Notes: a model not told the origin generated them from the sequence alone. Numbered from the stretch's first letter, positions 27,184 to 62,346 are shown. The stretch: DNA of 64,000 nucleotides from Planctomycetota bacterium (GCA_030616775.1 JAUWWQ010000006.1:1-64000), one strand, 5' to 3'. Numbers and translations: made by a program.

Positions 27184-27259
27184 CGGGGCGTAGCTCAGCC
27201 TGGTTTAGAGCGCAGCGTTCGGGACGCTGAGGTCGCTGGTTCGAATCCAGTCGCCCCGA
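27184..27259 (+). tRNA. tRNA-Pro (anticodon CGG)
   Basis: Hand-folded cloverleaf. Acceptor CGGGGCG/CGCCCCG, U8, D-stem GCTC/GAGC, anticodon stem CAGCG/CGCTG, loop TTCGGGA (anticodon CGG, G37), T-stem GCTGG/CCAGT, T-loop TTCGAAT, discriminator A. No CCA is encoded. Confidence 0.85.
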
Positions 27260-46437: not shown

Positions 46438-47673
46438 TCAGCGGCGGGCGGGCAGCGAAGCCGATTGCGGCACGAAGTCGTGTGCCGGGGCGGTCTGCCG
46501 AGCCATGAACCTCTCGAGTTCCACGATGCGTTGCGTCAGGCGGGGGTGGTACGCGTACATCTGGTTCAAAAAGCCGAGGATCTCGGGAATGTCCTCCTCC
46601 TGAGCGACCAGGGCCTGCAGATTGAGCTTTCCCACAAGCATGCGGCTGCCACTGGCCAGAGCCGCCAGGGCCCGTTGGGCAGCGTCGAGCTTGCCGGTTA
46701 CTGCGAGGGCGAGTCGATCAGCCGTCAACTCTTTAGCACGGCCGTAAGCGCTGCCGAAGAAGGGGAGCAACATGGCAGGTTTTAGAAACAGGTTCTTGAT
46801 GATGGCCACGTGGCCGGCGGCGTGGTGCGCCAGCTCGTGCGCCAAGACGACGTCGAGTTCGTCCCGTCGACCGGTGCTGAGCATGAGGTCTATCAGATCA
46901 GAGCTGAGGAATATGAACCGCCCACCGAGCAGCCGCAACGCCAAGGCGTTGATCTGCCCATTGCTGCTGACGACGAAGATCTCGGGAAGACGCTGCATCC
47001 CCAGCGCGCTGGCAATATCGCGCGCGGCAGTGTAGATCTCCGGATGCTGCTCGGAGCTGACCCTAACAGAGCTGCCCATGACGCTGGCCCGGTAGAACTG
47101 GGTCATCGCCCAACCTATAAGCAGCACGCCGAGTACGATTGGTATCAACCACAGCGCGGTCAGCAGGAGGACGGGAGTCACGGCCAGCCAGGCCAGACCA
47201 CTCACGACGGTCGCCAGTAGGAAACGGAACTTCTCCTTCTGGTGGCGATAGTGCCAAATCGATATTGGAGCGCCAGGATCCCGTGGCGCGGCATCTGCGC
47301 GAGGGCCTGGGAGAGGATCGAGGTCCGCCCTGGGCTGGGTGTCGGCCAGCGGGGGCGTTCGCATCATCGGAGTATGCGTTGGCCCGCCGCCGACGGCGGC
47401 CACGCCCCGTCCGCCGGGTGGGCTGGCGAGCGGCCCCATGCCGGCCGTCCGCGTTGGCTGTCGTACGGGCAGCGGCGGCGGCGTGCCGTAAGAAGATGCC
47501 GGATCAGTCGAGTGGCTGTCGTCGGGCTTGGCGGCCGCCGGCGCGTTGGTTGCTTCGGTCGTCCGTGTCGATATCTTGAACGACCTATGACATGCCGGAC
47601 ATTCACCCTGCTGCCCGGCCATACGTTCGTCGATCTTCAGGTTCTTCTTACAGTAGGGACAAGGCGTGATCAT
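46438..47673 (-). CDS. M48-family zinc metalloprotease (HtpX-like) with an N-terminal cytoplasmic zinc ribbon and a Pro-rich linker
   Basis: 'CPYCKKNLKIDERMAGQQGECPACH' ribbon, TM helices, 'HELAHHAAGH' HExxH motif and a downstream 'ELTADRLA' Glu. Confidence 0.75.
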   Translation of the reverse strand: MITPCPYCKKNLKIDERMAGQQGECPACHRSFKISTRTTEATNAPAAAKPDDSHSTDPASSYGTPPPLPVRQPTRTAGMGPLASPPGGRGVAAVGGGPTHTPMMRTPPLADTQPRADLDPLPGPRADAAPRDPGAPISIWHYRHQKEKFRFLLATVVSGLAWLAVTPVLLLTALWLIPIVLGVLLIGWAMTQFYRASVMGSSVRVSSEQHPEIYTAARDIASALGMQRLPEIFVVSSNGQINALALRLLGGRFIFLSSDLIDLMLSTGRRDELDVVLAHELAHHAAGHVAIIKNLFLKPAMLLPFFGSAYGRAKELTADRLALAVTGKLDAAQRALAALASGSRMLVGKLNLQALVAQEEDIPEILGFLNQMYAYHPRLTQRIVELERFMARQTAPAHDFVPQSASLPARR

Positions 47674-48148
47674 CGTCAATCTCCCGATTGTCTCGCCACT
47701 GGTCGCGTCACAGCGCGCAGTGCCCAGTGCCACCGGTACCTTCACACGAAACGAACGACTCGATCACAAGTCGGGCGCAATAGGTGCGATAGCACGCACG
47801 TTTGCCCCAACCCGTGAGCCGTCCGCCCTTCAAGAAGTCCCGCAAGAGCAGGATCTCAGTATTGGCAACTTACACGTGCACCTCTCGTGCTTCGGAGCAT
47901 TTTCGCCTAGCGGTCGCTCGGCCGGGCACAGCGCCATTCGCAACATCTGAACACTCCATTGTCTGATATGCTGCCCCAGCCGACATCTTACACGATTGTG
48001 AGCAGACCGACAAGGCTCAGCGCGTGTGTCCCGCGAGAGATACTGTCGCTCTCGAGAACCCGGGAGCACCTGTTGCAGTGCGGTGTTGTCTTGCCTCGCA
48101 ATTCAATGGAATCTCCCGACAGCAGAATGTGAGAGGCTCCGTGGCCCA

Positions 48149-48541
48149 CTACGCTGCGGGCCGTTCTCGTAGTGCGTCCAGTTTGGCCTTGGCCTCACGG
48201 GCCCAGGCCTGCCAACGCGGCAGCTCAGGCCGCACCTTCCCTTCGTAGACCTCCTGCGGTGTCACCGGGTCACCGCCGCCCTCCGGAACCAACGCCCAGT
48301 GCGGGCGCCGCTCGTTGTATCTCGTCTCGAACTCGGCCAGACACGCGCGGGCATCAGCCGGGCTCTCGTAGATCCGCCAGTACACCTCTTCCTCTCTGAG
48401 CGTCCGATGGAACCGCTCCAACAACCCAAGCTGGGTCGGCGTCCGGTACGCAATCCGCACCTGTTGATAGCGATCGCGGGTGAACCGCACGAACCGCTTG
48501 GCGATGAACGTCGAACCGTTGTCCGTCACCAGGAATGGCAT
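48149..48541 (-). pseudogene. Truncated C-terminal fragment of an IS3/IS481-type integrase-core (rve) transposase
   Basis: 'FLVTDNGSTFIAKRF...RIAYRTPTQLGLLERFHRTLREEEVYW...RYNERRPHWAL' covers only the distal part of the DDE core (third catalytic E region). No upstream N-terminal portion is present. Confidence 0.65.
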
Positions 48542-48759
48542 CCGCTTGAGCGGTCCGCCGATTCGCTCCGCCTCCCGACGGGCGACTGACTTGCCCCCTT
48601 GACGCTGGGCAGCGGCGGGATACGGTGAGAGTGTTGTACGGGGTACCGGTGAACCTGACGCGAAAACTCATCGACCCGGCCTCCAGCGGTACAGACCCGT
48701 AACCGGTGCTCGGTGCGACAGCCGTTGGGGGCGGGGCCTTTTCTGGGAGGACCAAACCC

Positions 48760-49848
48760 ATGATTGAGACAGCGGTTCACATTACGAAACGCCGGAACCC
48801 GTCCGGCAAGATGTGCTACACCGTCCGGTGGTTCCAGGACGGTCACTACCGCGGGCACGCCTGCGGTCTGCACAAGGAAACGGCGTACGAGTATCGACGC
48901 CAGAAGCGGTGGGAGCTGAAGCAGGGTATCAGCGACGATATCTGCGCGGTCTCCTGGGAACGGTTCGTGGCCGAGCATGTCGCGAACATACCCGGCAAGA
49001 ACCGCGGTGACCTCGTGCGGCAGACCTTGCATCAGTTTGGCGAGATGTTCCACCCGTCAGGACCGCACGCAGTTAGTTTCGGCATGGTCGAGGAATTCCA
49101 GCGGCGTCTGCGGATACTAAAGGAAGGTAATGGTGGAAAGCTACTTTCACCGCACACGATCAACAGCAAGTTGAGGCGGTTGAAGCACGCGTTGAACATG
49201 GCTGTGGAACGCCGGTACATCCGACGCAACCCCATGGGCAAGCGTCTTCGGTTCGAGCCTGTCGAGGAAATGGACCCCGTCCAGGTGCCGGATGAGTGGA
49301 AGCAGGCGGTGTTGGATGCATGCCCGACGCTGACATGGAAGGCGTTTCTTTACCTGCTCACCACGACCGGGTGCCGCCGAGGTGAGATCCTCGGGCTGGA
49401 GTGGGAGCGGGTTCACCTGGATGGTGCGTTCATCCGCTTGACGAAGACAAAGACGAAACGCGTGCGACTTCAGCCGCTGGTGCCGTCAGCGCTAGACTTG
49501 CTCGGGCGGCTGTATGCTGACGCCCCGAAGATGGTTGACGGTGGCCGAGAGGTTCCGAAAGAACCGTTGGTGTTTCGCGCACTAAAGTTCAACGTCCACC
49601 GCGAGTTCAACCGGATCAGGGACCGGGCGACGCTGGGCGACGGCTCACCGCTGCCGTTCTTTCGGATGAAAGACCTGCGTTCGACGGCTGGGACCGACGC
49701 GGCTGATGAGCAGTTTTCAGAGTTCAACGTCGCCAGCTTCCTGGGGCATTCCGACTCGAAGGTAACGGCCAAGCACTACATCAAGCGGAAGCTGGACGCC
49801 AAGCGTCAGATAGCTGAAGCACTTGCATCCAAGTTGAACATCGCATGA
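48760..49848 (+). CDS. Tyrosine site-specific recombinase (phage-integrase family)
   Basis: C-terminal catalytic domain 'TGCRRGEILGLEWERVHLD...LRSTAGT...FLGHSDSKVTAKHYIK' (R...HxxR...Y). A GGGAGG Shine-Dalgarno sits 9 nt upstream of the ATG at 48760. Confidence 0.85.
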   Translation: MIETAVHITKRRNPSGKMCYTVRWFQDGHYRGHACGLHKETAYEYRRQKRWELKQGISDDICAVSWERFVAEHVANIPGKNRGDLVRQTLHQFGEMFHPSGPHAVSFGMVEEFQRRLRILKEGNGGKLLSPHTINSKLRRLKHALNMAVERRYIRRNPMGKRLRFEPVEEMDPVQVPDEWKQAVLDACPTLTWKAFLYLLTTTGCRRGEILGLEWERVHLDGAFIRLTKTKTKRVRLQPLVPSALDLLGRLYADAPKMVDGGREVPKEPLVFRALKFNVHREFNRIRDRATLGDGSPLPFFRMKDLRSTAGTDAADEQFSEFNVASFLGHSDSKVTAKHYIKRKLDAKRQIAEALASKLNIA

Positions 49849-50138
49849 CCGCCCGGCGCAGCACACGCGCAACACATCCACAGCCTAAACGCCAAGAACC
49901 GGCGTTTTTGATCCCACAGAGGCGGTTCCTGGCCGCCGACTAACGTCTCACGCAGCTGGTCGTCGTGGCGCCCGAATGGCGCCAGGAGACGGTGGTCGAG
50001 GTCACGCCGTCGACGAAGAGGAGCGATGTCGGATCTGTCATGCAACGTCCTTGAAACACGGGCACCGGGAAGCGCAAATCGAGTATTGAGCCACGGCAAC
50101 TGGGCCTACTCGGTAAGACCGCCTCGCCTCCGTTCATT

Positions 50139-53100
50139 TCACGGCGCTAAAGTGTGTGCCGCCTGGCCGAGCGAATGCAGCTGGAGGACACCGTCATCCA
50201 ACGCCTCCTCCGCCAGCGTCACCAGTCGAGCGTGGTGGGTGAAGCAGATGACCTGGGTCCGGCGCGAGAGCTCCGCTAGTGCCTGGAGGGCGATCTTTGC
50301 CCGGGAGTCGTCAAAGTTGATCAAAACGTCGTCCACGATGAACGGAATCGGCTCGACCTCTTCCAGGTTGCGTTCCAGGCTTGCCAAGCGGAGGCAAAGG
50401 TAAAGCTGGTCGCGCGTTCCCTCACTCATGCCCTCAACAAAGACAAGCTCGCCGGACGGCCGGACTCCCACCAAGACGGGCTCGTCCCGGTCATCAAAGT
50501 CGGTCTGCAAGCTAGCGAACGACCCGAGCGTCAGTCGACCGAAAAGTTCGCTGGCACGCCTGAGGATCGGATCCTGGTTCTGCTCTCGATGGTGCTCGAT
50601 CTGCTGGTGAAGAATTGTGGCGGCGAGCCGAAGGCGCACGAAACGCTCGGCGCCATCCTGGATCTCAGTCAGGAGAGACTGCGCCCTCTCCTCCGCTTCG
50701 GCAGCCTTTGAATTGCCGTCCATGCCTTCCAGTACCGTTTCCTCGCGTCCGATGGCTTGATCGAGCCGGGAACGCCGACGTTCAAGCTCTGCGACAGTGT
50801 TCTCGACCTCCAGTAGCCGGGTGGACAGCTCGTCTTGATCGACGTCATTTGCCTCCTGGATGATCTGATCGACGGTAAGACCTTCTCCCAGGCCCAGTAG
50901 TCGCTCCTCCAACTCCCGAAGATCGGCTTGCAGGTTGCGTTTTCGCACGGATTGCCCTTCCATCTCTTCTAGTTCATCCATTCCGCAGGACGCCTCCTGA
51001 CAGAGGTCGTCGAGTTGAGCATTCATCTCCTTGATGGTGGCTTGTGCTTCCTCCAAGTCTGCTTGTTTTTCTCTCTCCTGTGCCCCCAGCTTGTCGATGG
51101 CCACCTTGTCTTCCCGAGCCTGATTCAACCTGGTCACGAGCTGCGAAGTTGCCTGGTCGGCGGGGAGTTCAACCAGTTCCGGGGCCACCTGCTTCACCAC
51201 TGCTGCAACGTCCGCCTTGAACTGATCGTCATCCCGCCGGATACCTTCGATCCGTATCCGTAGGTCCTCAGCATCCTCAAGCTTGTCGAAGAGCTCCTGG
51301 AGCCTGTCCAAAACCGCGTTCGCTTGATTGGGCGTGTCCCCAGGAGTCAGGCCGAGCTCTGTCACCGCCGGTTCCCATTGCCCACGCCACTCTTCGAGGG
51401 CTGCACGTGCCTCGACTCGTTTCTGAAGCGCCTTATCGCGGCTGACCTGCAAGTCCGCGATTGCCTTCTCAAGATCCTGCCGTCTCCGTCGGGTTTCGTT
51501 TAGATCGCCGATGACCGAATCGCAGCAGTCCAGCAGGTCTTCAAGGCTTGTGGCTGATTCCGGCATTGAGATCCCGGCGCGTCCGAGACAATCGGCCACT
51601 TGGGACCGGCGTTCTTCCATCAGCTTCTCGATGCGGTCGATCTCGTGACGGGCGACGCGTATTCGTTGGGCCTGCCCGGCCAATCGGCTCTGCGCCTGGA
51701 CCCACGATCGCATTTCCTTCGGGGGCCTCGGCGCATCTTCCAGCAAGCGCCATTCGTGACGCCATTCCGTATTGAGTTCTGCATGCCGCGTTTCGAGGGC
51801 CTTCCGTTGCTGCGTCCGTTGGCGGATGTCCTTTTCCGCTTCGTTCTGGCGCAGCAGCAGGTTCTCATACCGGGCCACACGGTCCGCGTCTTGCCGGATG
51901 CGGTCAACCACATCGTCAGCCTGGACCACGCTGCGTTCGTAGGCTTCGGCGAGTCCGTGGTCGGGGTCAAACGCGCGCTCTAGATCGGGGTCACGCTGGC
52001 CTTCCAGCCAAGCCCGTCGAACCATTGACCACCCTTGGGTTCGCCGTTGGCGGGCGTGCTCGAGATCCGCGTCCGTCGGCACCGGCCCCGATTGTTGCAG
52101 GGTGTCTATCTGACGGCTTACCTCATTGATTCGCTCCTCGGCCCGCTGGATCTGATCCGACACATTCCTTCGCTTGTTCTCCAGGTCAGCGTATTCGGAG
52201 TCGTAGCGATCGATGGTTTCAAATGGAGGAATAGGAAGAACCTCGAGTTGCTCAAGAGTGCCAGACCAAAGCTCTAGCTTGCTCAGGTCAATCGCGCTTT
52301 GTTCCTTCTCGCGTCTGAGCTCGGACTGGGCGCGGGCCAGTTGGTCATCCAGGTCGCCGGCCCTTCGAGCTTGTCTCACGGCCCGTTCGAGATCCGCAGT
52401 ATCCTTGGCATCTTCGAGCCCCGCCAACTCTGATGTCGACCGGTCCAGGCTCGCCTCGATGTTCTTGACGTCCTCTTCGTTGCGCTGGAGCATGGAGACA
52501 AGCGCTTCATGTTTGTTCCCGAGTTCGCGAATGCGAATCTTCCTCGTAGCGGGCAGGCGGAGTGATTCGGCTTCCTCCAGGACCAGGCCGGGCTTGAGCT
52601 CCTGCAGGATGGCCTCGGCCTGAGAGTCCAACTGCGCTCTTCGACTCTGCAGCCCCGTCAGATCTTCGGCCGCTTTGTGGTAGCTGCCGAGCCGCTGGTG
52701 GAGTTCGGCAATTGATTCGCCCTGGTGGAGGAGTTCGTCCTGAGCCGTGAGGCCCTGGATCTCCCCCCGTATTCTTTCAAGTGACGTCCGGCACTTTGCC
52801 TCAGTTCTTTGGGCATCTTTCAACGTGCGGAGCGCCTCGCGACGTTCTTCGGCGAACCCGTCCCGCAGCACCAACGCGTCAGCAAGCTCGGCCAGTTTAT
52901 CCAGTGTCATTTGTCGACCGGCACTCAGCGGATGGGACTTCTGGATTCGTTCCAACCTGGCCTTTTCGCGGCGAAGCTTGCCGAGTTCCTTAATAACAAC
53001 GTTCTTTTCTATCTTCGCGGTCTTAAGGGCGTCATCGTGTTCCGCCCACTCCCGGATGGGAAGGGAAAGTGCCTTGCGCTGCGCTCGGGCCTCCTTGAAC

Positions 53101-53660
53101 TGCTCGACGAGCAAATCGATGCGCTGCTTGCCCCTGGATTTGAAAAGGTCTCCGGCATCCGCATCGAGGGATTCCCTCACCCTTCGCAAGCTGATGCCGC
53201 CCATGCTGGCGTCGAACAGACTCTCGCCTACCACACCCTTGGCGGCAAGAATGTCCCGCCCACCATGCACCAGCTCCCGATGACTGATCCCGTAGAGCGT
53301 GGAAAACAAATCCTCGTCCACACCGGACAAGTAGCTGACCAGCGCCGTGTCAGCGAGAGCCTTGCCCCCAGGGGCTACTAGCGAGTTCTTCCTTGCCTTG
53401 CGTCGAACGAACTCCAACTCCGAACCATCCGAATGCCGGATGATGGCGCCGATACGCAGATCCTTGCTTTGGTGGCGGAAGTTGTCCGTGGACCGCATAG
53501 GGATGCCGAACAACAGGCCTTTCAATGCCCGCAGCGCACAACTCTTGCCCGTCTCGTTGTCACCGTAGATCAGATGAAATCCTTCATTGCCACCCGACAG
53601 GTCCAACACCAGATCGGTGAACGGTCCGAAAGCCTCGAGGTTCAGTCTCAAGATCTTCAT
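50139..53660 (-). CDS. SbcC/Rad50-family ABC ATPase, YhaN-like (COG4717), no CxxC zinc hook
   Basis: 1173 aa. Walker A 'GDNETGKS' at the N-terminus, about 800 aa of coiled coil, C-terminal signature-like 'SEGTRDQLYLCLRLA' and Walker B/D-loop 'PFIVDDVLINFDD'. It overlaps the upstream SbcD-like gene by 4 nt. Confidence 0.8.
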   Translation of the reverse strand: MKILRLNLEAFGPFTDLVLDLSGGNEGFHLIYGDNETGKSCALRALKGLLFGIPMRSTDNFRHQSKDLRIGAIIRHSDGSELEFVRRKARKNSLVAPGGKALADTALVSYLSGVDEDLFSTLYGISHRELVHGGRDILAAKGVVGESLFDASMGGISLRRVRESLDADAGDLFKSRGKQRIDLLVEQFKEARAQRKALSLPIREWAEHDDALKTAKIEKNVVIKELGKLRREKARLERIQKSHPLSAGRQMTLDKLAELADALVLRDGFAEERREALRTLKDAQRTEAKCRTSLERIRGEIQGLTAQDELLHQGESIAELHQRLGSYHKAAEDLTGLQSRRAQLDSQAEAILQELKPGLVLEEAESLRLPATRKIRIRELGNKHEALVSMLQRNEEDVKNIEASLDRSTSELAGLEDAKDTADLERAVRQARRAGDLDDQLARAQSELRREKEQSAIDLSKLELWSGTLEQLEVLPIPPFETIDRYDSEYADLENKRRNVSDQIQRAEERINEVSRQIDTLQQSGPVPTDADLEHARQRRTQGWSMVRRAWLEGQRDPDLERAFDPDHGLAEAYERSVVQADDVVDRIRQDADRVARYENLLLRQNEAEKDIRQRTQQRKALETRHAELNTEWRHEWRLLEDAPRPPKEMRSWVQAQSRLAGQAQRIRVARHEIDRIEKLMEERRSQVADCLGRAGISMPESATSLEDLLDCCDSVIGDLNETRRRRQDLEKAIADLQVSRDKALQKRVEARAALEEWRGQWEPAVTELGLTPGDTPNQANAVLDRLQELFDKLEDAEDLRIRIEGIRRDDDQFKADVAAVVKQVAPELVELPADQATSQLVTRLNQAREDKVAIDKLGAQEREKQADLEEAQATIKEMNAQLDDLCQEASCGMDELEEMEGQSVRKRNLQADLRELEERLLGLGEGLTVDQIIQEANDVDQDELSTRLLEVENTVAELERRRSRLDQAIGREETVLEGMDGNSKAAEAEERAQSLLTEIQDGAERFVRLRLAATILHQQIEHHREQNQDPILRRASELFGRLTLGSFASLQTDFDDRDEPVLVGVRPSGELVFVEGMSEGTRDQLYLCLRLASLERNLEEVEPIPFIVDDVLINFDDSRAKIALQALAELSRRTQVICFTHHARLVTLAEEALDDGVLQLHSLGQAAHTLAP

Positions 53661-54922
53661 GAAACATCCTCTCCTGCCAGGAGTCGGGGGATCAGGATCT
53701 GTTGGACTTCGGCCAGCAATTCCTCCCGCCTTGCCGGGCTGTCGAGGTCCAGAACCTCGTTACCGCTCTGGAGCTCGGCAGGCAATTTCCTTCTGAGGCT
53801 GGCAAACTCGCTGTTCAGAGCCTCCATCGCCTCCTGGATCGAATCCAAGCTCGCAATAGACTTCAACAGACTGCTGACGGCGTCCTCTCGCGCTCGGATG
53901 TTCTCTAGATCCGTTTTGGCCCTGGTCTGGATCCTGACCTTCTCGATCCACGCCTCCCCGTTGCTGACGTCCGTTGCCACAGCCCTGATCTGGTTGATCC
54001 AGTGGTCTGTCTTGGCCTGAAGTTCAGCATGAGCGCCGCAACGACCGGAAACAGTCACGCGGGCGGCGTGGAGCACGGCGTTGTCCTTTTCGATCTTCTG
54101 CTGAATGGCTTGACCGACCCTCTCGACGATCTCGTCGCCATCGTCCGCATCGGTGGCATCCACTTGAACATGGTGCCAACGAACCACGTCCACCGCCCGA
54201 TGCTCAACGCTCCTGACAGCGCCGTCCTCGACCGTGACTAGGCTGCAGCCTTTGGCCCCCTGCTCCCGAATGTAGCGGCCCTGAATGTTGCCGGGAAACA
54301 CAATCCAGGGATCTTCACTAAGCACCTCCCGCTTATGGACGTGCCCGAGAGCCCAATAGTCGTACCCTTTCGCCGCGAGGCCGGCGACTGTGCATGGCGC
54401 GTATGGCTCATGCCCTTCCCGGCCGTTGGCGCTCGTGTGTAACATTCCGATGTTGAGGCAGCCCGCCCTTGCCCCAGGATAGGACGCCGAGATGTCTTCC
54501 GTCACGGCTCGTCTGGCGAAACCTCTGCCATGGATGGCCACCCCTAGCTCTTCAAGCAAGATCGTTTCCGGCGCGCGGGTGGACAGCGCTCGAACATTCT
54601 CGGGGAGACGAATAGTCTTGGTGATCTGGCTCTGGGCGTCGTGGTTGCCGGATATTAGGAAGACCCTGATTCCGGCGATACTAAGCTTGCTCATCTGGCT
54701 TGCAAAGAACAGGCCTGTGTTGTAGTCCTTCCAGTCGCCGTCGTAGATATCGCCGGCCAGTAGGACGAAAGCCACTTCCTCCTCTGTAGCGAGTCGTATC
54801 AACCGCTCCAGCGCCTGGCGCGTGGCGGCGCGAAGTTCGTCGACCGGCGCACCCTCGTAGCGAAACAAGCCCCGGAGCGGGCTATCGAGATGAACGTCCG
54901 CCGCATGGATGAACTTGAACAC
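53657..54922 (-). CDS. SbcD/Mre11-family calcineurin-like metallophosphoesterase (YhaO-like)
   Basis: 421 aa. 'FIHAADVHLD', 'AGDIYD', 'ISGNHD', 'GHVH' phosphoesterase motifs. GTG start. Confidence 0.8.
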   Translation of the reverse strand: MFKFIHAADVHLDSPLRGLFRYEGAPVDELRAATRQALERLIRLATEEEVAFVLLAGDIYDGDWKDYNTGLFFASQMSKLSIAGIRVFLISGNHDAQSQITKTIRLPENVRALSTRAPETILLEELGVAIHGRGFARRAVTEDISASYPGARAGCLNIGMLHTSANGREGHEPYAPCTVAGLAAKGYDYWALGHVHKREVLSEDPWIVFPGNIQGRYIREQGAKGCSLVTVEDGAVRSVEHRAVDVVRWHHVQVDATDADDGDEIVERVGQAIQQKIEKDNAVLHAARVTVSGRCGAHAELQAKTDHWINQIRAVATDVSNGEAWIEKVRIQTRAKTDLENIRAREDAVSSLLKSIASLDSIQEAMEALNSEFASLRRKLPAELQSGNEVLDLDSPARREELLAEVQQILIPRLLAGEDVS

Positions 54923-55438
54923 CGTTGTTGCCCTCTTCTCACCGTATGGAATGTCAACGGGTATTCCAGAAGATCTCTAGCTTGGCGACGCTTCCAAGCG
55001 TCAGCGGCCCTCATTCTATCAGGTTGCGAGCGCGACGGAATGGTGCTGCGGGGGGTGGAGTATCTTCGATGTTGTCCGCTACTCCTCCCACATCCGCGCC
55101 CCCTGGGCAGGCACCAGCTTGGAGGGATAAACTGACCGCCGCCACCGGGCCAGGGGCCCAGGTGCCCGGGACCCCTCCGAGTGATGGGGAAATCGACGAC
55201 TGCCAGCTTGCACGGCGCGCTGCGCGGCCCCCTTCGATGGGCACGTGCTCGGTCGGACGGACGGGCGTCCTTCGGCCAGCCGTTGTCGGTGACAAAACCT
55301 CTGATGGTTTGCGGGAGTTGTCGCCGTCCACCCCACATGACGGCAGCAGCAATTCGATGGAAGCTTCACGTGGCTTTGGCGCATGGTAGGCAAAGTGCCG
55401 CGTTGTCGCTCGCATGCAGCGGAAGCGACAAGGCCCTG

Positions 55439-55747
55439 TCATCGCCCGCGACGCAGGCGTCTTCCGTCTCCGGCAGCACCAAACAGATCCTGCTCCCGGA
55501 TCTCAAACAACCGAATTGTCTCCCGGTTCAGGTAGAACCTGCCCTCCTCTGTCAGCATTCGTCGAATCTCAAGGAAAAGATGCACGTTCCGGAGGACTTC
55601 CTCCAGCCCCATGCTCGTGTTGTCCAGCGCGCGGATCTCCGTATAGTCCTCCAAGGCCTTCATGGCCAGCGGCGTGATCCGCTTGCTAAGCTTTTCGGTT
55701 TTCTTCAGAGTTGTCCAAGCGTCCCTCACAGATGAGATGATCACCAT
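55439..55747 (-). CDS. Small hypothetical helical protein (102 aa) within the nuclease/ATPase operon
   Basis: An ORF with a plausible amino-acid composition ('AMKALEDYTEIRALDNTSMGLEEVLRNVHLFLEIRRMLTEEGRF'). It lies between the Mrr-like and SbcD-like genes on the same strand. No family recognised. Confidence 0.4.
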   Translation of the reverse strand: MVIISSVRDAWTTLKKTEKLSKRITPLAMKALEDYTEIRALDNTSMGLEEVLRNVHLFLEIRRMLTEEGRFYLNRETIRLFEIREQDLFGAAGDGRRLRRGR

Positions 55748-55862
55748 GACAGTATTTTGTCACACAGGCTTAAAAAGTGAGCGCACTGGCAGGACATTTC
55801 ACGAGCAAATCTTCGTCATGGGTACAAATAGTCCAAAGGTTTTGAGCTCCGGGGGCCCAATC

Positions 55863-55905
55863 TTGTCCCACAACGGCGACCTTGTCCTTCAGGGTTGTGG
55901 GACAA
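55863..55905. promoter_or_regulatory. Perfect 12-bp inverted repeat (TTGTCCCACAAC ... GTTGTGGGACAA) with a 19-nt spacer, in the Mrr-like/small-ORF intergenic region
   Basis: Directly visible palindrome. It lies in a locally low-GC stretch just downstream of the Mrr-like gene's stop. No U-tract follows on the coding strand. Confidence 0.5.
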
Positions 55906-55964
55906 ATCCGTTTGGTTGAGGTTGCGTTTTCAATCAAGCCAGGGGGAAAAGGGTAATAGGTGAC

Positions 55965-56798
55965 CTACTCAGGCACCTCCCATCCATTCCATTCTTCGTT
56001 GGAATACGAGATCAACATCATTGGCGCATCCTTAAAGGGGGCACGGATGACGTCGTCGTCTGAATACGCGCGCCGTTGCGTGATCCTCAACGCTGCATAG
56101 AAGCGGGATGCATCCATAAGGACAATCGGTAAGCCGCATTCAGCAGCCAACTTACTCGTCTTCTCGGCTCCGGGCTGATAAGAAGATGTTGTCACGAAGA
56201 TGCCCGCGGTAAGCTTGTTGACCAATAGTGCACCCGTGAAGGCTCTTATCTGCTCGGCACGTATTCTGTCTTTCCACCTCTTCACTTGAACACCAATCGT
56301 AGTATCGCTAGGGCCGTCCAAGATAACATCAATGCCTCCATCATTGGAGTACGCTGTTACACGTGACCTGAACCCAAGATCCGAGAATACGGCGGCCACA
56401 GTCTCTTCGAGAAGGCGAGGATGGATTCTATCTATGGCAGAGGATTTCGCCATTAGATAGGATCTGATTTCTCGAAGTGGAGTGTCAATGTCAGCAAGGT
56501 CCAGCTGTCGCAAGCTTCCGGCACTTCCATGCATGCGCCTGCTGAAACCCCCCCTCGAATACTGATCGTCATAATTCCCAAAGACTACGTTGTTCACGGT
56601 CCACCACCCACAAACGTTGCAGACATGCACGTGTCGCGCCATTTCCTGTGTGACTGCGTCAGCTGCGAGGTATTCCCGCTGCGTTATAAGGAGGTATTCA
56701 AGCTCGCTCTCGCAGTAGATACAGCGCCTGACCTTAACGAGCTCGCCCATGGCCCTCGAGGAGTAGGCAGCGTAGTCCCTGTAAGTCCATATAGACAT
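55965..56798 (-). CDS. Zinc-ribbon plus Mrr-cat (PD-(D/E)xK restriction-endonuclease-like) domain protein
   Basis: 'CIYCESELE...HVCNVCGWW' ribbon. 'SNDGGIDVILDG...IGVQVKRW...AGIFVTTSSY' matches the Mrr catalytic-domain (PF04471) pattern. A GGAGG Shine-Dalgarno sits 8 nt upstream. The gene GC content is lower than the surroundings. Confidence 0.65.
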   Translation of the reverse strand: MSIWTYRDYAAYSSRAMGELVKVRRCIYCESELEYLLITQREYLAADAVTQEMARHVHVCNVCGWWTVNNVVFGNYDDQYSRGGFSRRMHGSAGSLRQLDLADIDTPLREIRSYLMAKSSAIDRIHPRLLEETVAAVFSDLGFRSRVTAYSNDGGIDVILDGPSDTTIGVQVKRWKDRIRAEQIRAFTGALLVNKLTAGIFVTTSSYQPGAEKTSKLAAECGLPIVLMDASRFYAALRITQRRAYSDDDVIRAPFKDAPMMLISYSNEEWNGWEVPE

Positions 56799-57794
56799 CG
56801 GTCAACCTCCATCTCTTGCGTGAGGCGAACAAGAGTGACTCGATATTCGTTACGCGGCAAACGTAGCGTGTGATGCTCTATCGACGATGGTCTGACGCCA
56901 CCGCGTACCGCTGGCTCGAGACCTGCAATCGGCTGCCTGCCCCGTCGCCCCAACCGTCAGCGCCCGAGCGAGCAGACGTCGCCTGTTGTGCAAGCCTCCC
57001 TGGTCACCGATTCCCAGCAGCCGAACGCGACAGGGCAAGAACCGCCTCGCGCGGGCCATCGCGCCGATCTGCCACACCGCGGGCAGCCAGTAACGGCACC
57101 GTCCACGACGCAGGGACCTTGTCTGCCTCTGTCGCCCCGGTAAACCGGGGTATCCGGTTTGCCGCCTCTATCACCGCGATCATACCATGGTCGGCCATTC
57201 AAGGGCTACGTTGCAACGCGGATCCGGCGCCGGGACTTTCCTTCTGAAGTGCAGATTGTGTCAATTGAGCCAGCAGGATCCTGAAGGGACGTTTCCGTCG
57301 GACTTCTTCTGCGTCCGCGATTGCCCCAAAGCCTAGTCCAACAGACGCTGCCGGCCACCGGCAATCCTTGATTCATCAGCCTCAGATTTCGAGGCATTGC
57401 TCGGGCCGCCTGCCGGGCAAATCTGCCCTCGACTCTGAATCAGACCCCTGGCCGAGGTGGCGGTACCGCGCGAGTTGTTCGCCGCGATCCTCGATCGCAT
57501 CCAGCGATTCGGTATGCCTCCGCCGCTGGTGCAGCGTGGCTGATACCGCAACCGATGGACAGGTCGGTGATTCGTACAGGGGCAAGGGGCAACGCCGCGC
57601 GGAAATGGGCCGGAATTGTTGTCCGGGAGGCGGCGAGGGCAGAATTGGCATCCCGCCCGCCGGGAGAGCGGTGAGACGGGCACGAATCACGGCGAGAAAG
57701 GCCGTTCTCGTTTGAATCGAGCAGGCCATCCGGGTACGATCACGGGTTCAGGTCTGATAAATGCGAAATCCGGGTTTGTGTGGAAGGAGTAGCT

Positions 57795-58508
57795 ATGGAT
57801 CGAGACGAGAGACTGAAATTGAGTTACGAGGAGACTACGAAGTACTTCCATGCCTTGGCGGACGCCCGATTCAAGCTTCTGGCTCTCGTCCCCATAGCTA
57901 CAGGAACCGCCATTGGGTTACTCCGAGACACGCCCCCGGACTGCGTAATAGCCGTCAGCCTACTCGGCTTGATCGTAACGGTTGGCTTGGTGTGCTACGA
58001 TCAGCGCAACACGCAGATTTACGACGCCATGATGATTCGCGCAAAAGTCCTTGAGGCTCTTCTTGGCTTCGATCCGGTGCACCCCGCACAGAAGAACCGC
58101 GGTGGCGCCTTCCTGGACCGTCCGGAGCGCAGTCGGCGACTCTTTGAGGGCGTGTTCGGGTGGCGTGGTCTGTTGCTATGGCATGATCGGGGGCTCGCGT
58201 TGATCTACGGTGCGGCACTAGGCGGATGGACATATTTGCTGGCGAATTCAGTCTCAACTCTGCTAGAGGTAGAGGGACTACCGCAAAGGCTGGCGATCAA
58301 CCTCTTATTACCAGTTATCGTGACAACCATGTTTGTCTTGGGGCTTCAGGAGTTGGACGAAGAGACGGATCCGTTGGATCAGTTACCGCCACATATACGG
58401 GAACTGACGAAGGCTTCCGAGGAATCAGCCGCGGGATGGGTCCGCATCATGCATGAGCGAGGAGGACAGCCAGATGAATCGGGGCAAAAGACATCTGTTG
58501 TTCGTTGA
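57795..58508 (+). CDS. Hypothetical polytopic membrane protein
   Basis: A GAAGGAG Shine-Dalgarno precedes the ATG at 57795. Four hydrophobic helices ('LALVPIATGTAIGLL', 'AVSLLGLIVTVGLVCY', 'LIYGAALGGWTYLLA', 'LLLPVIVTTMFVLGL'). Confidence 0.5.
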   Translation: MDRDERLKLSYEETTKYFHALADARFKLLALVPIATGTAIGLLRDTPPDCVIAVSLLGLIVTVGLVCYDQRNTQIYDAMMIRAKVLEALLGFDPVHPAQKNRGGAFLDRPERSRRLFEGVFGWRGLLLWHDRGLALIYGAALGGWTYLLANSVSTLLEVEGLPQRLAINLLLPVIVTTMFVLGLQELDEETDPLDQLPPHIRELTKASEESAAGWVRIMHERGGQPDESGQKTSVVR

Positions 58509-59148
58509 TGACGACGAACATGAGGTAACGACGTTTGCACGATTGTTTCACGGTGAGCGCTTTGAGGTCACGGGTGTCCACGTTGAAAGGCCGAGTGAAG
58601 GACCAAGTGCTGTGGAATTAGCGCTTGCTGGGAGAACCCCCGACCTGTTTGTGTTAGACCTCTTCTTCTGCGGCAGAGATGACGCTCCCCGGACGGTTGG
58701 AGGTAATAAGATCCAGGAGGCACGGCGCGCGATACAAAGCACGATCGAAGCCGCTGAAGCGCTCAGAGAATTGGCGGTGCGTGAGCCGAACGATGGAAAG
58801 AGGCTTCTTCGGGAGGCTCACGGGCTCGTCCAAGAGACGCGGAGACTCTTGGATGATTGGTGCGAGCATTTGGGTCAGACACACAAGGGTGGGATCGCCC
58901 TCCTAGAGACGCTGCATCGCACCTATCCGAACATACCGAAAGTATTCTATTCGCGCAAGGCCACCCTGCAGCACGCGAAGGATGCTCTACACGCCGGCGC
59001 CCTCGACGTGCTATCAAAACCGGAACCAAGGCTGGAGCTTCAAACTGCTGAGGACCTTGGCGAGAGGTTTCTCGAATACTGCGAGTGGCGGCCACCGAGT
59101 TTCCTCGCCGGGTGGCATGAGAAGCTCTCCCCATTTGTAACATGGTGA
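58474..59148 (+). CDS. Stand-alone receiver (CheY-like REC) domain protein with an internal insertion
   Basis: A GAGGAGGA Shine-Dalgarno. 'HLLFVDDDE' acidic pocket, 'DLFVLDLFF' phospho-acceptor Asp context, 'VFYSRK' Lys, 'AGALDVLSKP'. Confidence 0.55.
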   Translation: MNRGKRHLLFVDDDEHEVTTFARLFHGERFEVTGVHVERPSEGPSAVELALAGRTPDLFVLDLFFCGRDDAPRTVGGNKIQEARRAIQSTIEAAEALRELAVREPNDGKRLLREAHGLVQETRRLLDDWCEHLGQTHKGGIALLETLHRTYPNIPKVFYSRKATLQHAKDALHAGALDVLSKPEPRLELQTAEDLGERFLEYCEWRPPSFLAGWHEKLSPFVTW

Positions 59149-59257
59149 CCATGGGAGGAATATTCTCGCGGCCCGTCGATGGTACACTAAACGATGGACG
59201 CTGCCGCCCAGCGGCAATCTGCCCCGCTCCGAAGCGCCACACATCGGCGTCCGAGGG

Positions 59258-59470
59258 TCAAAGGACGCGCCCTTTCTTCGTCAACACGCCTTTTCGGACC
59301 GCCTCGTCAAAGACTTCCTCAGGCCACTCGTCGGACAGGAAGTTCCGGTCGGGCAAGAATGTTCCGCGATAGCCACAGTTGGGACACACGTAGAAAACTC
59401 GGCCTCCATCGTTGTCGTCGCGGAACTTCCTCATTCGTTTCTTACATTGGCGGCAATAGGTATACGTCAT
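59258..59470 (-). CDS. Small zinc-ribbon protein (CxxC...CxxC)
   Basis: 'CRQCKKRMRKFRDDNDGGRVFYVCPNCG'. An AAAGGAA Shine-Dalgarno sits 7 nt upstream of the internal ATG. Confidence 0.45.
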   Translation of the reverse strand: MTYTYCRQCKKRMRKFRDDNDGGRVFYVCPNCGYRGTFLPDRNFLSDEWPEEVFDEAVRKGVLTKKGRVL

Positions 59471-59980
59471 CTGGGCGTTCCTTTCGAACGGGCGGAACAC
59501 GACTCAGTTTCAACTGCCAACGGGCGCAATTATGCCAGGTTCGCCCTTCCGGTCAAAGCGGCGGGTTCTCGCAGCCAAGGCGGCCCGAAGCGGCTCCGTC
59601 GAAGCTCGTTGGTCCATCTCCTAGACCAGCTCTGTGGTTTCTTTCGCTACGTCAGTCGCGGTAACACACGTTACGTACCACGGCCCGCATGAAGGCCACA
59701 AGAACGCCTCCAAAGCAAGGCCGCTCTCCATGCACGCCGAGCGTTCTGAAGGTAGCGGCCAAGGATTGTCTCCCGACACCAACCCGGCGGTGGGTCCACG
59801 GCTCCCGGTTACGGGACACCCGCAAGGGGATGCCCCGGTTCTTATAAACGCGAGGTGCCTAAAACGTAGAAGACCGCCTTCTTGGATCGAGCCATGCAAT
59901 CAGGCTGGCTTTCTCCGTTTCCCCCGCCAGCGGCGGGGCCGGCACCTCGCTCGGGTTATGAGTTGGCGGCGATTGGCCTG

Positions 59981-60143
59981 ACCCCCGAGAACGGATCCAG
60001 GCCGTATGTTAGAATCATGCGGTTTCTGGATCTGAAAGGGAGTTCAGGTTATGGCGAAGAGACGGCACACGGCGGGACAGATCATATCGAAGCTTCGGGA
60101 GGCGGAGGTCCTCCTGGCCAAGGGCCAAGACAGTCAACGGTGA
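59981..60143 (+). pseudogene. Remnant of the left end of an IS3-family element: IRL-like 'TGACCCCCGAG...' plus the first 30 codons of an OrfA (HTH transposase) ending in a premature stop
   Basis: ATG at 60051 with an upstream AAGGGAG. The translation 'MAKRRHTAGQIISKLREAEVLLAKGQDSQR*' matches the canonical IS3-family OrfA N-terminus (RFTxEQIIxxLKExExGxxxxxVCR). The reading frame collapses after that. Confidence 0.5.
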
Positions 60144-61827: not shown

Positions 61828-62346
61828 TCTCGCACGCTGCTGCCGCGTTGCCTCCGTTTCTTGGCAGCGCCGGCCGACCAGGAAGGGTCTCGTACGGCAC
61901 CCCAGGCTTGTATTCAGCCTACTGCGCCGGGATTTCGCGTGTGCCGCTTCCGAAGGCGCAATTCTATACGCATGCGACGCTCCCTGGCAAGTCCGAGGGA
62001 AATCCTTGCTGAAACGCTTGATTCGCTGCGCACCACGCCGCAATTGCGACCACGCCTGGTCGCTCACACCCCGCCTCGTCCGTCTCAGTCCTTACTGAGT
62101 AGCCCCGCCTGAGATCCCGGATCGATGGTTACGCTCTTCGTCCGATCGTGGCCTTCGTCCCTCCACGACAACGGGTGTCGGCACACCCAACCGCTTGATC
62201 CGCTCCGAGAGCGCAGCGGAGGATACACGGGCGCGGCTCTCGAAACAGGCCCGTCTCCGACGGCCGTTATCCGAATGCCTTGACTCGGCAGCATAGGAGT
62301 GGCACTAAGGCCTTCGAGTGACTGGCACAACTACCTTCAGCGCGGC

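What the first reader, a model, noticed from the sequence alone, without database searches (positions are those of the whole stretch)
48149..60143. ~12-kb putative integrative island bounded by degraded IS3-family fragments, carrying a candidate nuclease/ATPase defence operon
The interval begins with a truncated IS3/IS481-type OrfB C-terminal fragment (48149-48541, minus). Adjacent is a tyrosine integrase (48760-49848, plus). It ends with an IS3-family left end: IRL-like 'TGACCCCCGAG', then 'MAKRRHTAGQIISKLREAEVLLAKGQ' followed by a premature stop (59981-60143, plus). Inside is a minus-strand operon: 56798 -> a zinc-ribbon Mrr-cat PD-(D/E)xK nuclease, a 102-aa helical protein, an SbcD/YhaO-like phosphoesterase, a 1173-aa SbcC/YhaN-like Rad50-family ATPase -> 50139. 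There are tight overlaps of 4 nt between the SbcD and SbcC genes. The cargo also includes a membrane protein with a stand-alone REC protein and a small zinc-ribbon protein. GC content dips at the Mrr-like gene. The Rad50-like ATPase has no zinc hook, so it is YhaN-type rather than canonical SbcC. A restriction-type nuclease co-operonic with a YhaO/YhaN pair, within mobile-element scars, fits the logic of anti-phage systems that pair SMC/Rad50-like sensors with nuclease effectors (Lamassu, Gabija, Old-family and similar). It does not match any system I can name. It could alternatively be a mobilised DNA-repair module.
Basis: partly seen in the sequence, partly recalled or inferred. Interest (0 to 1): 0.7.

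Follow-up and report, generated by a model that had tools for sequence, protein, structure and literature searches.

The report
Repair-type nuclease pair beside unrelated restriction gene
The proposed four-gene anti-phage operon is a chance neighbourhood: a widespread, self-contained Mre11/Rad50-like pair (YhaO/YhaN, the SbcF/SbcE type) lies next to an unrelated solitary Mrr-type restriction nuclease, an orphan small gene, an integrase and insertion-sequence debris.

Summary
The described ORFs and domains are all present. They include an rve transposase fragment, a tyrosine integrase, a 1173-aa AAA_27 (YhaN-type) ATPase without a CxxC hook, and a Metallophos (YhaO-type) nuclease that overlaps it by 4 nt. 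A 102-aa ORF, a zinc-ribbon plus Mrr_cat nuclease at low GC, and a membrane/REC pair are also there. The four-gene operon and the single 12-kb island are not supported.

- **The YhaO-YhaN pair:** it has more than 8000 homologues and at least 595 matches in species genomes across many phyla. None of 80 such loci, nor the four closest relatives, has the Mrr-like gene, the 102-aa gene or this integrase nearby.
- **The Mrr family:** none of 80 loci carrying it has YhaO or YhaN.
- **Extent of homology:** the closest relative matches only window 50126-55207, which is the pair plus 285 bp upstream holding a conserved promoter-like motif.
- **Composition:** the pair has native GC, whereas the Mrr gene is about 4 sd lower.
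- **The 102-aa gene:** it is a lineage-restricted orphan found alone elsewhere.
- **The Mrr family's usual setting:** it is a solitary gene, often near integrases and known defence genes.
- **Island boundaries:** there are no att repeats and no nearby tRNA, and the right-hand IS3 scar has only weak support.

Verdict: ordinary members of known kinds, adjacent by accident. Low interest.

The parts
48149..48541 (-). C-terminal remnant (130 aa) of an IS481/IS3-type DDE transposase. The N-terminal part is missing.
   Evidence: It matches rve_3 at 1.3e-12. It matches IS481 at 2.6e-16 and IS3 at 4.2e-13, covering only profile positions 192-275 of 284. Nothing is recognisable in six frames of 48530-48770.
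48760..49848 (+). Tyrosine recombinase (integrase), apparently intact, convergent with YhaN.
   Evidence: It matches Phage_integrase at 5.9e-14 and Phage_int_SAM_5. R206, KxxR 304-307, H330 and Y340 are present. GC is 0.599, like the background. No relative is found in viral contigs. It is absent from all YhaO loci.
50139..53660 (-). YhaN/SbcE-type Rad50-like ATPase (1173 aa) with long coiled coils and no zinc hook.
   Evidence: It matches AAA_27 at 1.4e-65 over positions 1-206 of 206. Walker A is at G33, the signature at S1079, Walker B at 1107 and the H-loop at 1140, and there is no CxxC. A homologue is present in 75 of 80 YhaO loci and lies directly downstream of YhaO, overlapping or within 15 nt, in 46 of the 51 loci where both ORFs were called separately. 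PADLOC gives only partial coiled-coil hits to LmuB.
53657..54922 (-). YhaO/SbcF-type Mre11/SbcD-like metallophosphoesterase nuclease (421 aa). It overlaps YhaN by 4 nt.
   Evidence: It matches Metallophos at 1.1e-10. It scores below the cut-offs of the SbcD and Mre11 equivalogs. Its PDB relatives are SbcD and Mre11. Motifs D9xH11, G57D, G92NHD and G193HxH are present. At least 7998 homologues have E<=1e-10, and one 56%-identical homologue is named 'putative metallophosphoesterase YhaO'.
54923..55207 (-). Upstream region conserved together with the YhaO-YhaN pair. It contains a promoter-like motif, CTGATAGAATGA, at 55011-55022.
   Evidence: The blastn match to L084 (80% identity) runs from 50126 to 55207 and stops there. 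In a three-way alignment with L084 and L085, the run GCTGATA is invariant and the rest of the motif is shared with L084, about 90-100 nt upstream of the start codon. The motif is unique in the window. Promoter function is inferred.
55439..55747 (-). Orphan 102-aa predicted helical protein (p102). It is not part of the YhaO/YhaN unit.
   Evidence: It has no Pfam, NCBIfam or PADLOC hit. Only 10 homologues exist, at 65-90% identity. One cluster was found among 1.84 billion representatives. It sits in unrelated contexts in L002 and L003. The DNA match to those loci covers only 55479-55812. The structure model is unreliable, with pLDDT 49.
55965..56798 (-). Solitary zinc-ribbon plus Mrr_cat PD-(D/E)xK endonuclease (277 aa). 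It is probably a stand-alone Type IV-like restriction enzyme, and its low GC indicates horizontal acquisition.
   Evidence: It matches Mrr_cat at 1e-22. PADLOC hits are PDC-S02 and mREase_IV, on the nuclease domain only. It has 420 homologues of about 270 aa, the best at 45-48% identity. Four Cys, D157 and QVK171-173 are conserved. The model has pLDDT 83, and its best folds are MspJI, AspBHI, EcoT38I and the Avs4 nuclease. GC is 0.524.
57780..59148 (+). Overlapping pair: a 242-aa protein with about 4 hydrophobic helices (57780-58508) and a 231-aa receiver-domain protein (58453-59148). GC is slightly low. There is no evidence of a link to the nuclease genes.
   Evidence: The second protein matches Response_reg at 1.9e-9, and the first has no hits. 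GC is 0.558 and 0.565. Neither is found in any YhaO or Mrr locus.
59258..59500 (-). Small 80-aa ORF with two CxxC pairs, a putative zinc ribbon.
   Evidence: It has only sub-threshold hits, to DUF7577 and Zn_ribbon_recom. It is not found in other loci.
60052..60143 (+). Possible 30-codon scar of an IS3-family OrfA N-terminus, ending in a stop. Support is weak.
   Evidence: It has no Pfam or NCBIfam hit. tblastn against plasmids gives 25 records at E 0.02-0.9; 12 of the 15 listed are annotated as IS3-family transposase, aligned at their N-termini.

Best explanation
The interval is a mosaic of independent pieces, not one system.

(1) **The YhaO-YhaN module (window 50126-55207).** This is a self-contained two-gene module of the YhaO/YhaN type, which is SbcF/SbcE in Bacillus subtilis. 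It pairs an Mre11/SbcD-like Mn-phosphoesterase nuclease with a hook-less Rad50/SbcC-like coiled-coil ATPase. The genes are translationally coupled by an ATGA overlap, and transcription probably starts from the module's own conserved upstream region. By homology, the ATPase dimer binds DNA ends or other abnormal DNA structures. ATP hydrolysis then gates the nuclease, which processes the ends for recombinational repair. That step is inferred from the family, not shown here.

(2) **The Mrr-like gene (55965-56798).** It is an unrelated, horizontally acquired, solitary restriction-type endonuclease. Its N-terminal four-Cys beta domain probably recognises the target, possibly modified DNA. Its C-terminal D...QxK Mrr_cat domain cuts. 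Elsewhere this family is a single-gene passenger of variable regions, often beside integrases and known defence genes.

(3) **p102.** It is a lineage-restricted orphan gene that occurs on its own elsewhere.

(4) **Mobile-element debris.** The integrase, the rve fragment and the possible IS3 scar come from separate events. They do not delimit a demonstrable island.
For: **Independence of the parts**
- 80 of 80 YhaO loci from named genomes lack homologues of the Mrr-like gene, p102, this integrase and the IS fragment. 75 of 80 have YhaN.
- YhaO and YhaN overlap by exactly 4 nt in 28 loci, as they do here.
- 80 of 80 Mrr-family metagenome loci (492 kb) lack YhaO, YhaN and p102. So do four longer contigs.
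- p102 homologues in L002 and L003 have none of the other genes nearby.

**Unit boundaries**
- L084 matches 50126-55207 only, at 80% DNA identity. L085 matches 50155-54921. p102 matches L002 and L003 over 55479-55812 only.
- The upstream motif is conserved in the window, L084 and L085.

**Composition**
- YhaO (0.600), YhaN (0.598) and the integrase (0.599) equal the background of 0.604 +/- 0.019.
- Mrr is 0.524 and p477 is 0.531.

**Family assignments**
- YhaN matches AAA_27 at 1.4e-65 and has no CxxC.
- The SbcE paper describes exactly this combination: a hook-less SMC-like protein encoded directly downstream of the SbcD-like yhaO, with mutants sensitive to double-strand breaks (PMC2811018).
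- All catalytic motifs are intact.

**Context statistics**
- The flanking genes of YhaO/YhaN loci show no recurrent partner. Phage_integrase is not among the 25 most frequent families in 249 neighbours.
- Among 132 nearest neighbours, the PADLOC hits listed (the 25 most frequent families) are mostly kinase-type models (PD-T4-6, C3a189), plus mad6 and MkoA in two members each.
- Neighbours of the Mrr family include Phage_integrase (4), TIR_2 (4), TatD (3) and HicB (2). They also include QatB/C/D (3 each), HamB, LmuB and PDC-M23B.
- An NJ tree of YhaO groups most sequences by phylum, for example 11 of 17 Planctomycetota, all 4 Acidobacteriota and both Bacillota. That fits a long-resident chromosomal function.
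- YhaO relatives are rare in viral contigs: 7 loci among 2.9 million.
Against: - The window and its four closest relatives each have different genes flanking the pair. The homology ends abruptly, so the pair behaves like a cassette in this clade. It is not at a conserved locus.
- In the tree, the window's clade sits next to Delta/Nitrospirae sequences rather than inside the main Planctomycetota clade. The window's taxon is not established.
- One close relative has a PLD/SNF2-type helicase gene next to the pair. Another has HNH and PIN genes within a few kb.
- I could not compare directly with B. subtilis SbcE/SbcF sequences.
- The two Bacillota loci retrieved lack a yhaM neighbour, so strict orthology to the characterised pair is unproven.
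- No function was tested. Co-transcription of the four same-strand genes is not excluded by sequence alone.
Confidence: 0.8

Rival explanations
1. A new four-gene anti-phage system, made of the Mrr-like effector, a 102-aa adaptor, an SbcD-like nuclease and a Rad50-like sensor, is carried on a 12-kb integrative island.
For: All four genes are on the minus strand within 6.7 kb. The integrase and IS remnants are nearby. The Mrr family is found near defence genes elsewhere. YhaN gives weak PADLOC hits to LmuB, at 3.8e-14 over the coiled-coil region only.
Against: - The genes do not co-occur in 80 YhaO loci, 80 Mrr loci, 2 p102 loci or the closest relatives.
- Intergenic gaps are 516 and 217 bp.
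- The GC of the Mrr gene differs from the pair by about 4 sd.
- The homology block of the pair ends before p102, and the pair has its own conserved upstream motif.
- The Mrr-like protein does not match any LmuA model.
- There are no att repeats and no nearby tRNA.
Confidence: 0.04
2. The YhaO/YhaN pair is itself a horizontally moving defence or anti-foreign-DNA cassette, independent of the Mrr-like gene. It would work like a Rad50/Mre11-derived sensor-nuclease, comparable in logic to Lamassu or to SbcCD acting on linear DNA, rather than as a housekeeping repair module.
For: - The homology boundaries are cassette-like, and the flanks differ in every close relative.
- YhaO is 55-60% identical across phyla.
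- The window's clade is placed away from the main Planctomycetota clade.
- Some relatives have PLD/helicase, HNH or PIN genes nearby.
Against: - The neighbours in 60+ genomes are ordinary metabolic and signalling genes, with no integrase or defence enrichment.
- The tree is mostly congruent with phyla.
- The pair's GC is native.
- It is almost absent from viral contigs.
- No PADLOC model covers the ATPase heads or the nuclease.
- The only characterised homologue gives DNA-repair and competence phenotypes (PMC2811018).
Confidence: 0.1
3. A degraded integrative element spanning roughly 47.8-62 kb captured the YhaO/YhaN pair as cargo, making it a mobilised repair module. The integrase would sit at one end and the IS3 scar or the low-GC genes at the other.
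For: The integrase lies 290 bp from the YhaN stop, and an IS remnant lies beside it. Low-GC genes (Mrr, the membrane/REC pair, p477) lie on the other side, out to 62.1 kb. The flanks of the pair are not conserved in relatives.
Against: - No direct repeats bound any such interval.
- There is no tRNA or tmRNA target.
- The pair and the integrase have native GC, and only 55.7-62.1 kb is deviant.
- L084 carries the pair without the integrase.
- This integrase has no homologue at any other YhaO locus.
- I could not find an empty site, because the search for relatives of the flanking M48 gene returned nothing.
Confidence: 0.1

Closest known systems
SbcE (YhaN) / SbcF (YhaO) of Bacillus subtilis (Krishnamurthy et al. 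2010, PMC2811018)
   Same: The SbcD/Mre11-like phosphoesterase gene lies directly upstream of an SMC/Rad50-like ATPase gene. The ATPase lacks the CxxC zinc hook. Its N-terminal head matches Pfam AAA_27, which is the YhaN AAA domain (that equivalence is from my own knowledge). Close homologues of the nuclease carry the name YhaO in public annotation.
   Different: The window's ATPase is 1173 aa. I recall B. subtilis YhaN being shorter, about 960 aa (from memory). No yhaM-like gene is adjacent here or in the two Bacillota loci I retrieved. The host is not a Gram-positive. No direct sequence comparison with the B. subtilis proteins was possible.
Canonical SbcCD / Mre11-Rad50
   Same: It has the same two-component logic, the same phosphoesterase motifs and the same ABC-type ATPase motifs. 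PDB sequence hits are to SbcD and Mre11.
   Different: There is no zinc hook. It scores below the NCBIfam cut-offs for SbcD (52 against 77.65 bits) and for Mre11 and Rad50. YhaN has no PDB sequence match at all.
Mrr / Type IV and modification-dependent restriction endonucleases (E. coli Mrr, MspJI, AspBHI)
   Same: The C-terminal Mrr_cat PD-(D/E)xK domain carries D...QxK. The two-domain layout places a recognition domain before the nuclease. The best fold matches are MspJI, AspBHI and EcoT38I.
   Different: The N-terminal domain is a four-Cys zinc-ribbon/beta domain. It is neither the winged helix of Mrr nor a demonstrated SRA domain. TM-scores to whole structures are low, at 0.31-0.35. The specificity is unknown.
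Lamassu (LmuA effector, LmuB SMC-like ATPase, with or without LmuC)
   Same: The superficial logic is similar: a Rad50/SMC-like ATPase near a nuclease, one Lamassu subtype uses an Mrr effector (from my own knowledge), and there is a small gene in between.
   Different: LmuB models match only the coiled-coil part of YhaN. The Mrr-like protein matches no LmuA model. An Mre11-like nuclease is not part of Lamassu. The genes do not co-occur elsewhere.

Membership tests
YhaO/YhaN (SbcF/SbcE) module | ATPase with a YhaN-type N-terminal head (Pfam AAA_27) | tested here: met
   AAA_27 scores 221 bits (cut-off 22) at E 1.4e-65 over profile positions 1-206 of 206.
YhaO/YhaN (SbcF/SbcE) module | SMC/Rad50-like ATPase lacking the CxxC zinc hook | tested here: met
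   There is no CxxC anywhere in the 1173 aa. The SbcE paper states that SbcE lacks the motif.
YhaO/YhaN (SbcF/SbcE) module | SbcD/Mre11-like phosphoesterase gene immediately upstream, on the same strand | tested here: met
   The overlap is 4 nt. The same arrangement occurs in 28 other loci. Phosphoesterase motifs are intact.
YhaO/YhaN (SbcF/SbcE) module | Direct sequence orthology to B. subtilis SbcE, including its 'unique central domain' | not testable with these tools
   No B. subtilis sequence was available. The Bacillota homologues retrieved (L025, L032) are 28-31% identical over the aligned length (YhaN) and 48-49% identical (YhaO), but lack a yhaM neighbour.
YhaO/YhaN (SbcF/SbcE) module | Role in double-strand-break repair | not testable with these tools
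   This needs genetics. It is inferred from PMC2811018.
Canonical SbcCD | Zinc hook CxxC at the coiled-coil apex, and scores above the SbcD/SbcC family cut-offs | tested here: not met
   There is no CxxC. TIGR00619 scores 52.4 bits against a cut-off of 77.65, and the other equivalogs score far below their cut-offs.
Lamassu | LmuB SMC ATPase matching over its heads, plus an LmuA effector, co-occurring as a conserved operon | tested here: not met
   LmuB hits cover only residues 394-749 and 175-513, which are coiled coil. There is no LmuA hit. No co-occurrence was found in 160 loci.
Gabija / OLD-family systems | OLD-type ATPase-TOPRIM protein (GajA) with a UvrD-like helicase (GajB) | tested here: not met
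   GajA scores E 0.0087 with no significant stretch. There is no helicase in the interval.
Mrr-type (Type IV-like) restriction endonuclease | Mrr_cat domain with a conserved acidic residue and (Q/E)xK | tested here: met
   Mrr_cat scores 80.8 bits (cut-off 21). D157 and Q171-V-K173 are invariant in 30 homologues. The model has a restriction-endonuclease fold.
Mrr-type (Type IV-like) restriction endonuclease | Dependence on modified DNA; the N-terminal winged-helix recognition domain of E. coli Mrr | tested here: inconclusive
   The N-terminus is a four-Cys beta domain instead. The fold resemblance to MspJI and AspBHI is weak, with TM 0.31-0.35. Substrate preference needs experiment.
Integrative genomic island | Integrase at one end | tested here: met
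   Phage_integrase matches with catalytic residues present.
Integrative genomic island | Flanking direct repeats (att), typically at a tRNA or tmRNA gene | tested here: not met
   No flanking repeat exceeds chance-level 14-31 nt imperfect matches. The only tRNA is at 27184. Rfam finds nothing in 44-64 kb.
Integrative genomic island | Absent as a block from related genomes (an empty site) | tested here: inconclusive
   No relative with conserved flanks was found. Relatives carry the pair alone.
Integrative genomic island | Composition deviating from the host over the whole interval | tested here: not met
   Only 55.7-62.1 kb is low in GC. The integrase and the YhaO/YhaN pair match the background.

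The most novel reading that the evidence does not exclude
In this clade the hook-less YhaO/YhaN pair is a horizontally moving cassette. It has sharp boundaries, its own promoter and different flanks in every relative. It would act against foreign linear or structured DNA rather than, or as well as, in chromosomal repair. On this reading it is a free-standing Mre11/Rad50-type relative of the ancestors of Lamassu-like systems, and its position in a variable region beside a restriction gene is not accidental.
Probability: 0.08. Interest if true: 0.55.

Novelty: new member of a known kind. Interest (0 to 1): 0.15.

Why it matters
It matters mainly as a caution. Same-strand neighbours in a region with mobile-element scars looked like a new sensor-plus-effector defence system. 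Comparative data instead show three independently distributed units.

Two points have modest residual value:
- **The YhaO/YhaN (SbcF/SbcE-type) pair.** It has been characterised only in B. subtilis, yet it is present with a fixed 4-nt overlap in at least 595 species genomes across many phyla. Its biochemistry is essentially unknown, and YhaN has no solved relative.
- **The zinc-ribbon-Mrr family.** It is common and uncharacterised. It is often near Qat, Hachiman, TIR and integrase genes, so it is a reasonable candidate single-gene restriction enzyme.

Tried and rejected
- **Island ends.** A repeat search over 47.5-61 kb found only short imperfect matches of the kind expected by chance. Rfam at E<=1 found nothing.
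- **Empty site.** A metagenome scan with the flanking M48 peptidase found no relative. tblastn of all window ORFs against relatives' contigs found no shared flanks.
- **Transcription signals.** The consensus promoter/terminator scan gave counts at or below the shuffled expectation, so I did not use it.
- **p102.**
  - It has no family hit.
  - The AlphaFold model is too poor to search (pLDDT 49).
  - A profile search of 1.84 billion representatives found only its own cluster plus two repeat-like hits.
- **Right-hand IS scar and intergenic stretches.** Six-frame pieces of eight stretches gave no Pfam hit better than E 0.0076, and NCBIfam gave none.
- **Orthology to the B. subtilis yhaONM locus.** The genes downstream of the pair in two Bacillota loci are transporters and SppA, not yhaM.
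- **Literature.** A search for AAA_27/PF13514 returned only noise.
- **Source organism.** The cluster look-up returned no names, so the taxon remains inferred. The features look Planctomycetota-like.
- **Viral association.** The integrase has no match in viral contigs, the full-length Mrr family has one, and YhaO has seven.
- **Two halves of one IS.** I considered that the two IS fragments might be parts of one element split by an insertion. I rejected this because they lie on opposite strands and match different families or parts.

Full report
**1. Check of the observation**

Profile searches confirm the domain assignments:
- 48149-48541(-) matches rve_3 and the last ~85 positions of IS481/IS3 transposase models.
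- 48760-49848(+) is a Phage_integrase-family recombinase with R206, KxxR 304-307, H330 and Y340.
- 50139-53660(-) matches AAA_27 at 1.4e-65 over the whole profile.
- 53657-54922(-) is a calcineurin-like phosphoesterase. Its best NCBIfam and PDB matches are SbcD and Mre11, all below the family cut-offs.
- 55965-56798(-) matches Mrr_cat at 1e-22.
- 58453-59148(+) has a receiver domain.

The 4-nt overlap of the nuclease and ATPase genes, the absence of any CxxC in the ATPase, and the GC dip at the Mrr-like gene are all real.

The right-hand 'IS3 left end' is the weak point. The 30-codon ORF at 60052-60143 has no Pfam or NCBIfam hit. tblastn against plasmids gives individually insignificant matches (E 0.02-0.9). 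Twelve of the 15 listed records are annotated as IS3-family transposase, matched at the N-terminus. It is therefore a plausible scar but not a demonstrated one.

The two IS fragments lie on opposite strands and cannot be halves of one element.

**2. Are the four minus-strand genes one operon or system?**

The genes are separated by 516 bp (YhaO to p102) and 217 bp (p102 to Mrr). Only YhaO and YhaN are coupled. I tested co-occurrence from each side.

*From the YhaO side.*
- The family is very large, with at least 7998 proteins at E<=1e-10.
- In the 80 best loci, each with up to 10 kb of flank, YhaN is present in 75. The Mrr-like gene, p102, this integrase and the IS fragment are present in none.
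- Exactly the same 4-nt overlap occurs in 28 loci.
- The four closest relatives I could retrieve have YhaO identities of 82, 77, 67 and 63%. All keep the pair and have entirely different neighbours.

*From the Mrr side.*
- The protein belongs to a family of about 270-aa proteins with an N-terminal MSIW motif, four conserved Cys and the Mrr_cat domain.
- None of 80 metagenomic loci (492 kb) has YhaO, YhaN or p102. Nor do four longer contigs.

*From the p102 side.*
- Only ten homologues exist, all 65-90% identical.
- A profile search of 1.84 billion representatives finds only that cluster.
- In two contigs the gene sits among unrelated genes.

**3. Unit boundaries and composition**

- blastn of the region against relatives shows that L084 (80% DNA identity) matches window 50126-55207 only. 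That runs from 13 bp past the YhaN stop to 285 bp upstream of the YhaO start. L085 matches 50155-54921.
- Within that upstream stretch, the run GCTGATA of the motif CTGATAGAATGA (window 55011-55022, minus strand) is invariant in the window, L084 and L085, and the full motif is shared with L084. It lies about 90-100 nt before the start codon. I read it as the pair's own promoter region, which is an inference.
- p102 matches L002 and L003 over 55479-55812 only.
- GC content separates the parts:

| Feature | GC |
|---|---|
| 35 upstream background genes | 0.604 +/- 0.019 |
| YhaO | 0.600 |
| YhaN | 0.598 |
| Integrase | 0.599 |
| Mrr-like gene | 0.524 |
| Membrane protein | 0.558 |
| REC protein | 0.565 |
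| 477-aa ORF at 60634-62067 | 0.531 |

- The compositionally foreign stretch is therefore about 55.7-62.1 kb. It excludes the pair and runs past the proposed right end.

**4. What the pieces are**

*The pair.* It fits the YhaO/YhaN type, named SbcF/SbcE in B. subtilis. The SbcE paper describes an SMC-like protein most similar to SbcC that lacks the CxxC motif. It is encoded next to the SbcD-like yhaO, and its loss sensitises cells to double-strand breaks and mildly reduces transformation (PMC2811018).

Here the ATPase has Walker A, signature, Walker B and H-loop motifs. The nuclease has all Mre11-type phosphoesterase motifs. The likely mechanism is ATP-gated processing of DNA ends or aberrant structures by a nuclease-ATPase complex. 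This is inferred from the family.

*The pair's neighbours.*
- Across 60+ genomes they are a mix of signalling and metabolic genes with no recurrent partner. Phage_integrase is not among the 25 most frequent families.
- PADLOC hits among the 132 nearest neighbours are mostly kinase-type models (PD-T4-6, C3a189), with mad6 and MkoA in two members each.
- An NJ tree of YhaO groups most sequences by phylum.
- The family is almost absent from viral contigs.

Together these point to a long-resident chromosomal function rather than a defence-island gene.

*The Mrr-like protein.*
- It models well (pLDDT 83), with an N-terminal beta domain and a C-terminal restriction-endonuclease fold. The best structural matches are MspJI, AspBHI, EcoT38I and the Avs4 nuclease domain, although whole-chain TM-scores are low.
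- Its PADLOC hits (PDC-S02, mREase_IV) cover only the nuclease domain.
- Its family neighbours include integrases, TIR proteins, HicB, QatBCD, Hachiman HamB and an LmuB-like protein.

It is best read as a solitary restriction-type defence nuclease that travels with variable regions.

**5. The island question**

An intact-looking integrase and a transposase remnant lie between the M48 peptidase gene and YhaN, so mobile DNA has certainly been here. Several findings argue against a single island:
- No direct repeats bound the interval.
- No tRNA or RNA gene is nearby.
- The composition is not uniformly foreign.
- The pair exists without the integrase in relatives.

I could not find an empty site. 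A single 12-kb island is therefore not demonstrated. A patchwork of separate events is the simpler reading.

**6. What remains open**

- The pair has different flanks in every close relative and sharp homology ends.
- The window's clade does not sit inside the main Planctomycetota clade of the tree. The pair may therefore move horizontally in this lineage.
- The source taxon is unknown.
- Orthology to the B. subtilis proteins could not be tested directly, and yhaM synteny was not found.

None of this restores the four-gene system, but it leaves a small probability that the pair has a role beyond repair.

**7. Verdict**

The interpretation as a new defence operon on an integrative island is not supported. 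The region holds new members of known kinds: an SbcF/SbcE-type pair, an Mrr-type nuclease, an integrase and IS debris, adjacent by accident. Interest is low.

Noticed in passing
window 60634-62067 (-): A 477-aa ORF with no Pfam hit has low GC (0.531, about 4 sd below background).
   Followed up: partly
window 56799-57779: Almost 1 kb between the Mrr-like gene and the membrane-protein gene has no convincing ORF. There is no Pfam hit in any of six frames and no Rfam hit. GC is 0.625, higher than both neighbouring genes.
   Followed up: partly
window 55479-55812; L002 6014-6323; L003 8631-8965: The p102 gene and about 65 nt upstream are conserved at 78-79% DNA identity in three otherwise unrelated contexts. 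This suggests a small self-contained unit that moves or is retained on its own. Some homologues are annotated with longer N-termini of 124-133 aa.
   Followed up: partly
window 55011-55022 (-): The motif CTGATAGAATGA lies upstream of YhaO. It is conserved in L084 and largely in L085 and is unique in the window. It is a candidate -10-containing promoter element for the pair.
   Followed up: partly
L121, L123, L125, L142 (metagenome loci of the Mrr family): In these soil contigs the zinc-ribbon-Mrr gene lies directly downstream of three genes. Three neighbour proteins each match QatB, QatC and QatD strongly (down to E 3.7e-176). The contigs may come from related organisms, so these are not independent observations.
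   Followed up: no
L084 5942-9349: In the closest relative with usable flanks, the gene after YhaN encodes a 1135-aa PLDc_2 plus SNF2/helicase-C protein. That architecture is seen in some defence systems.
   Followed up: no
window 46438-47745 (-) and 62347-63951 (-): Two M48-peptidase-like membrane proteins flank the region on either side. The left one has an N-terminal CxxC...CxxC zinc-ribbon-like motif. They are not detectably close paralogues of each other in my searches.
   Followed up: no
window 57780-59148 (+): The membrane protein and the REC protein overlap by 56 nt. The REC match covers only the C-terminal half of the Pfam profile (residues 146-198), so this is an atypical receiver domain with a long insertion or a divergent N-terminal half.
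   Followed up: no
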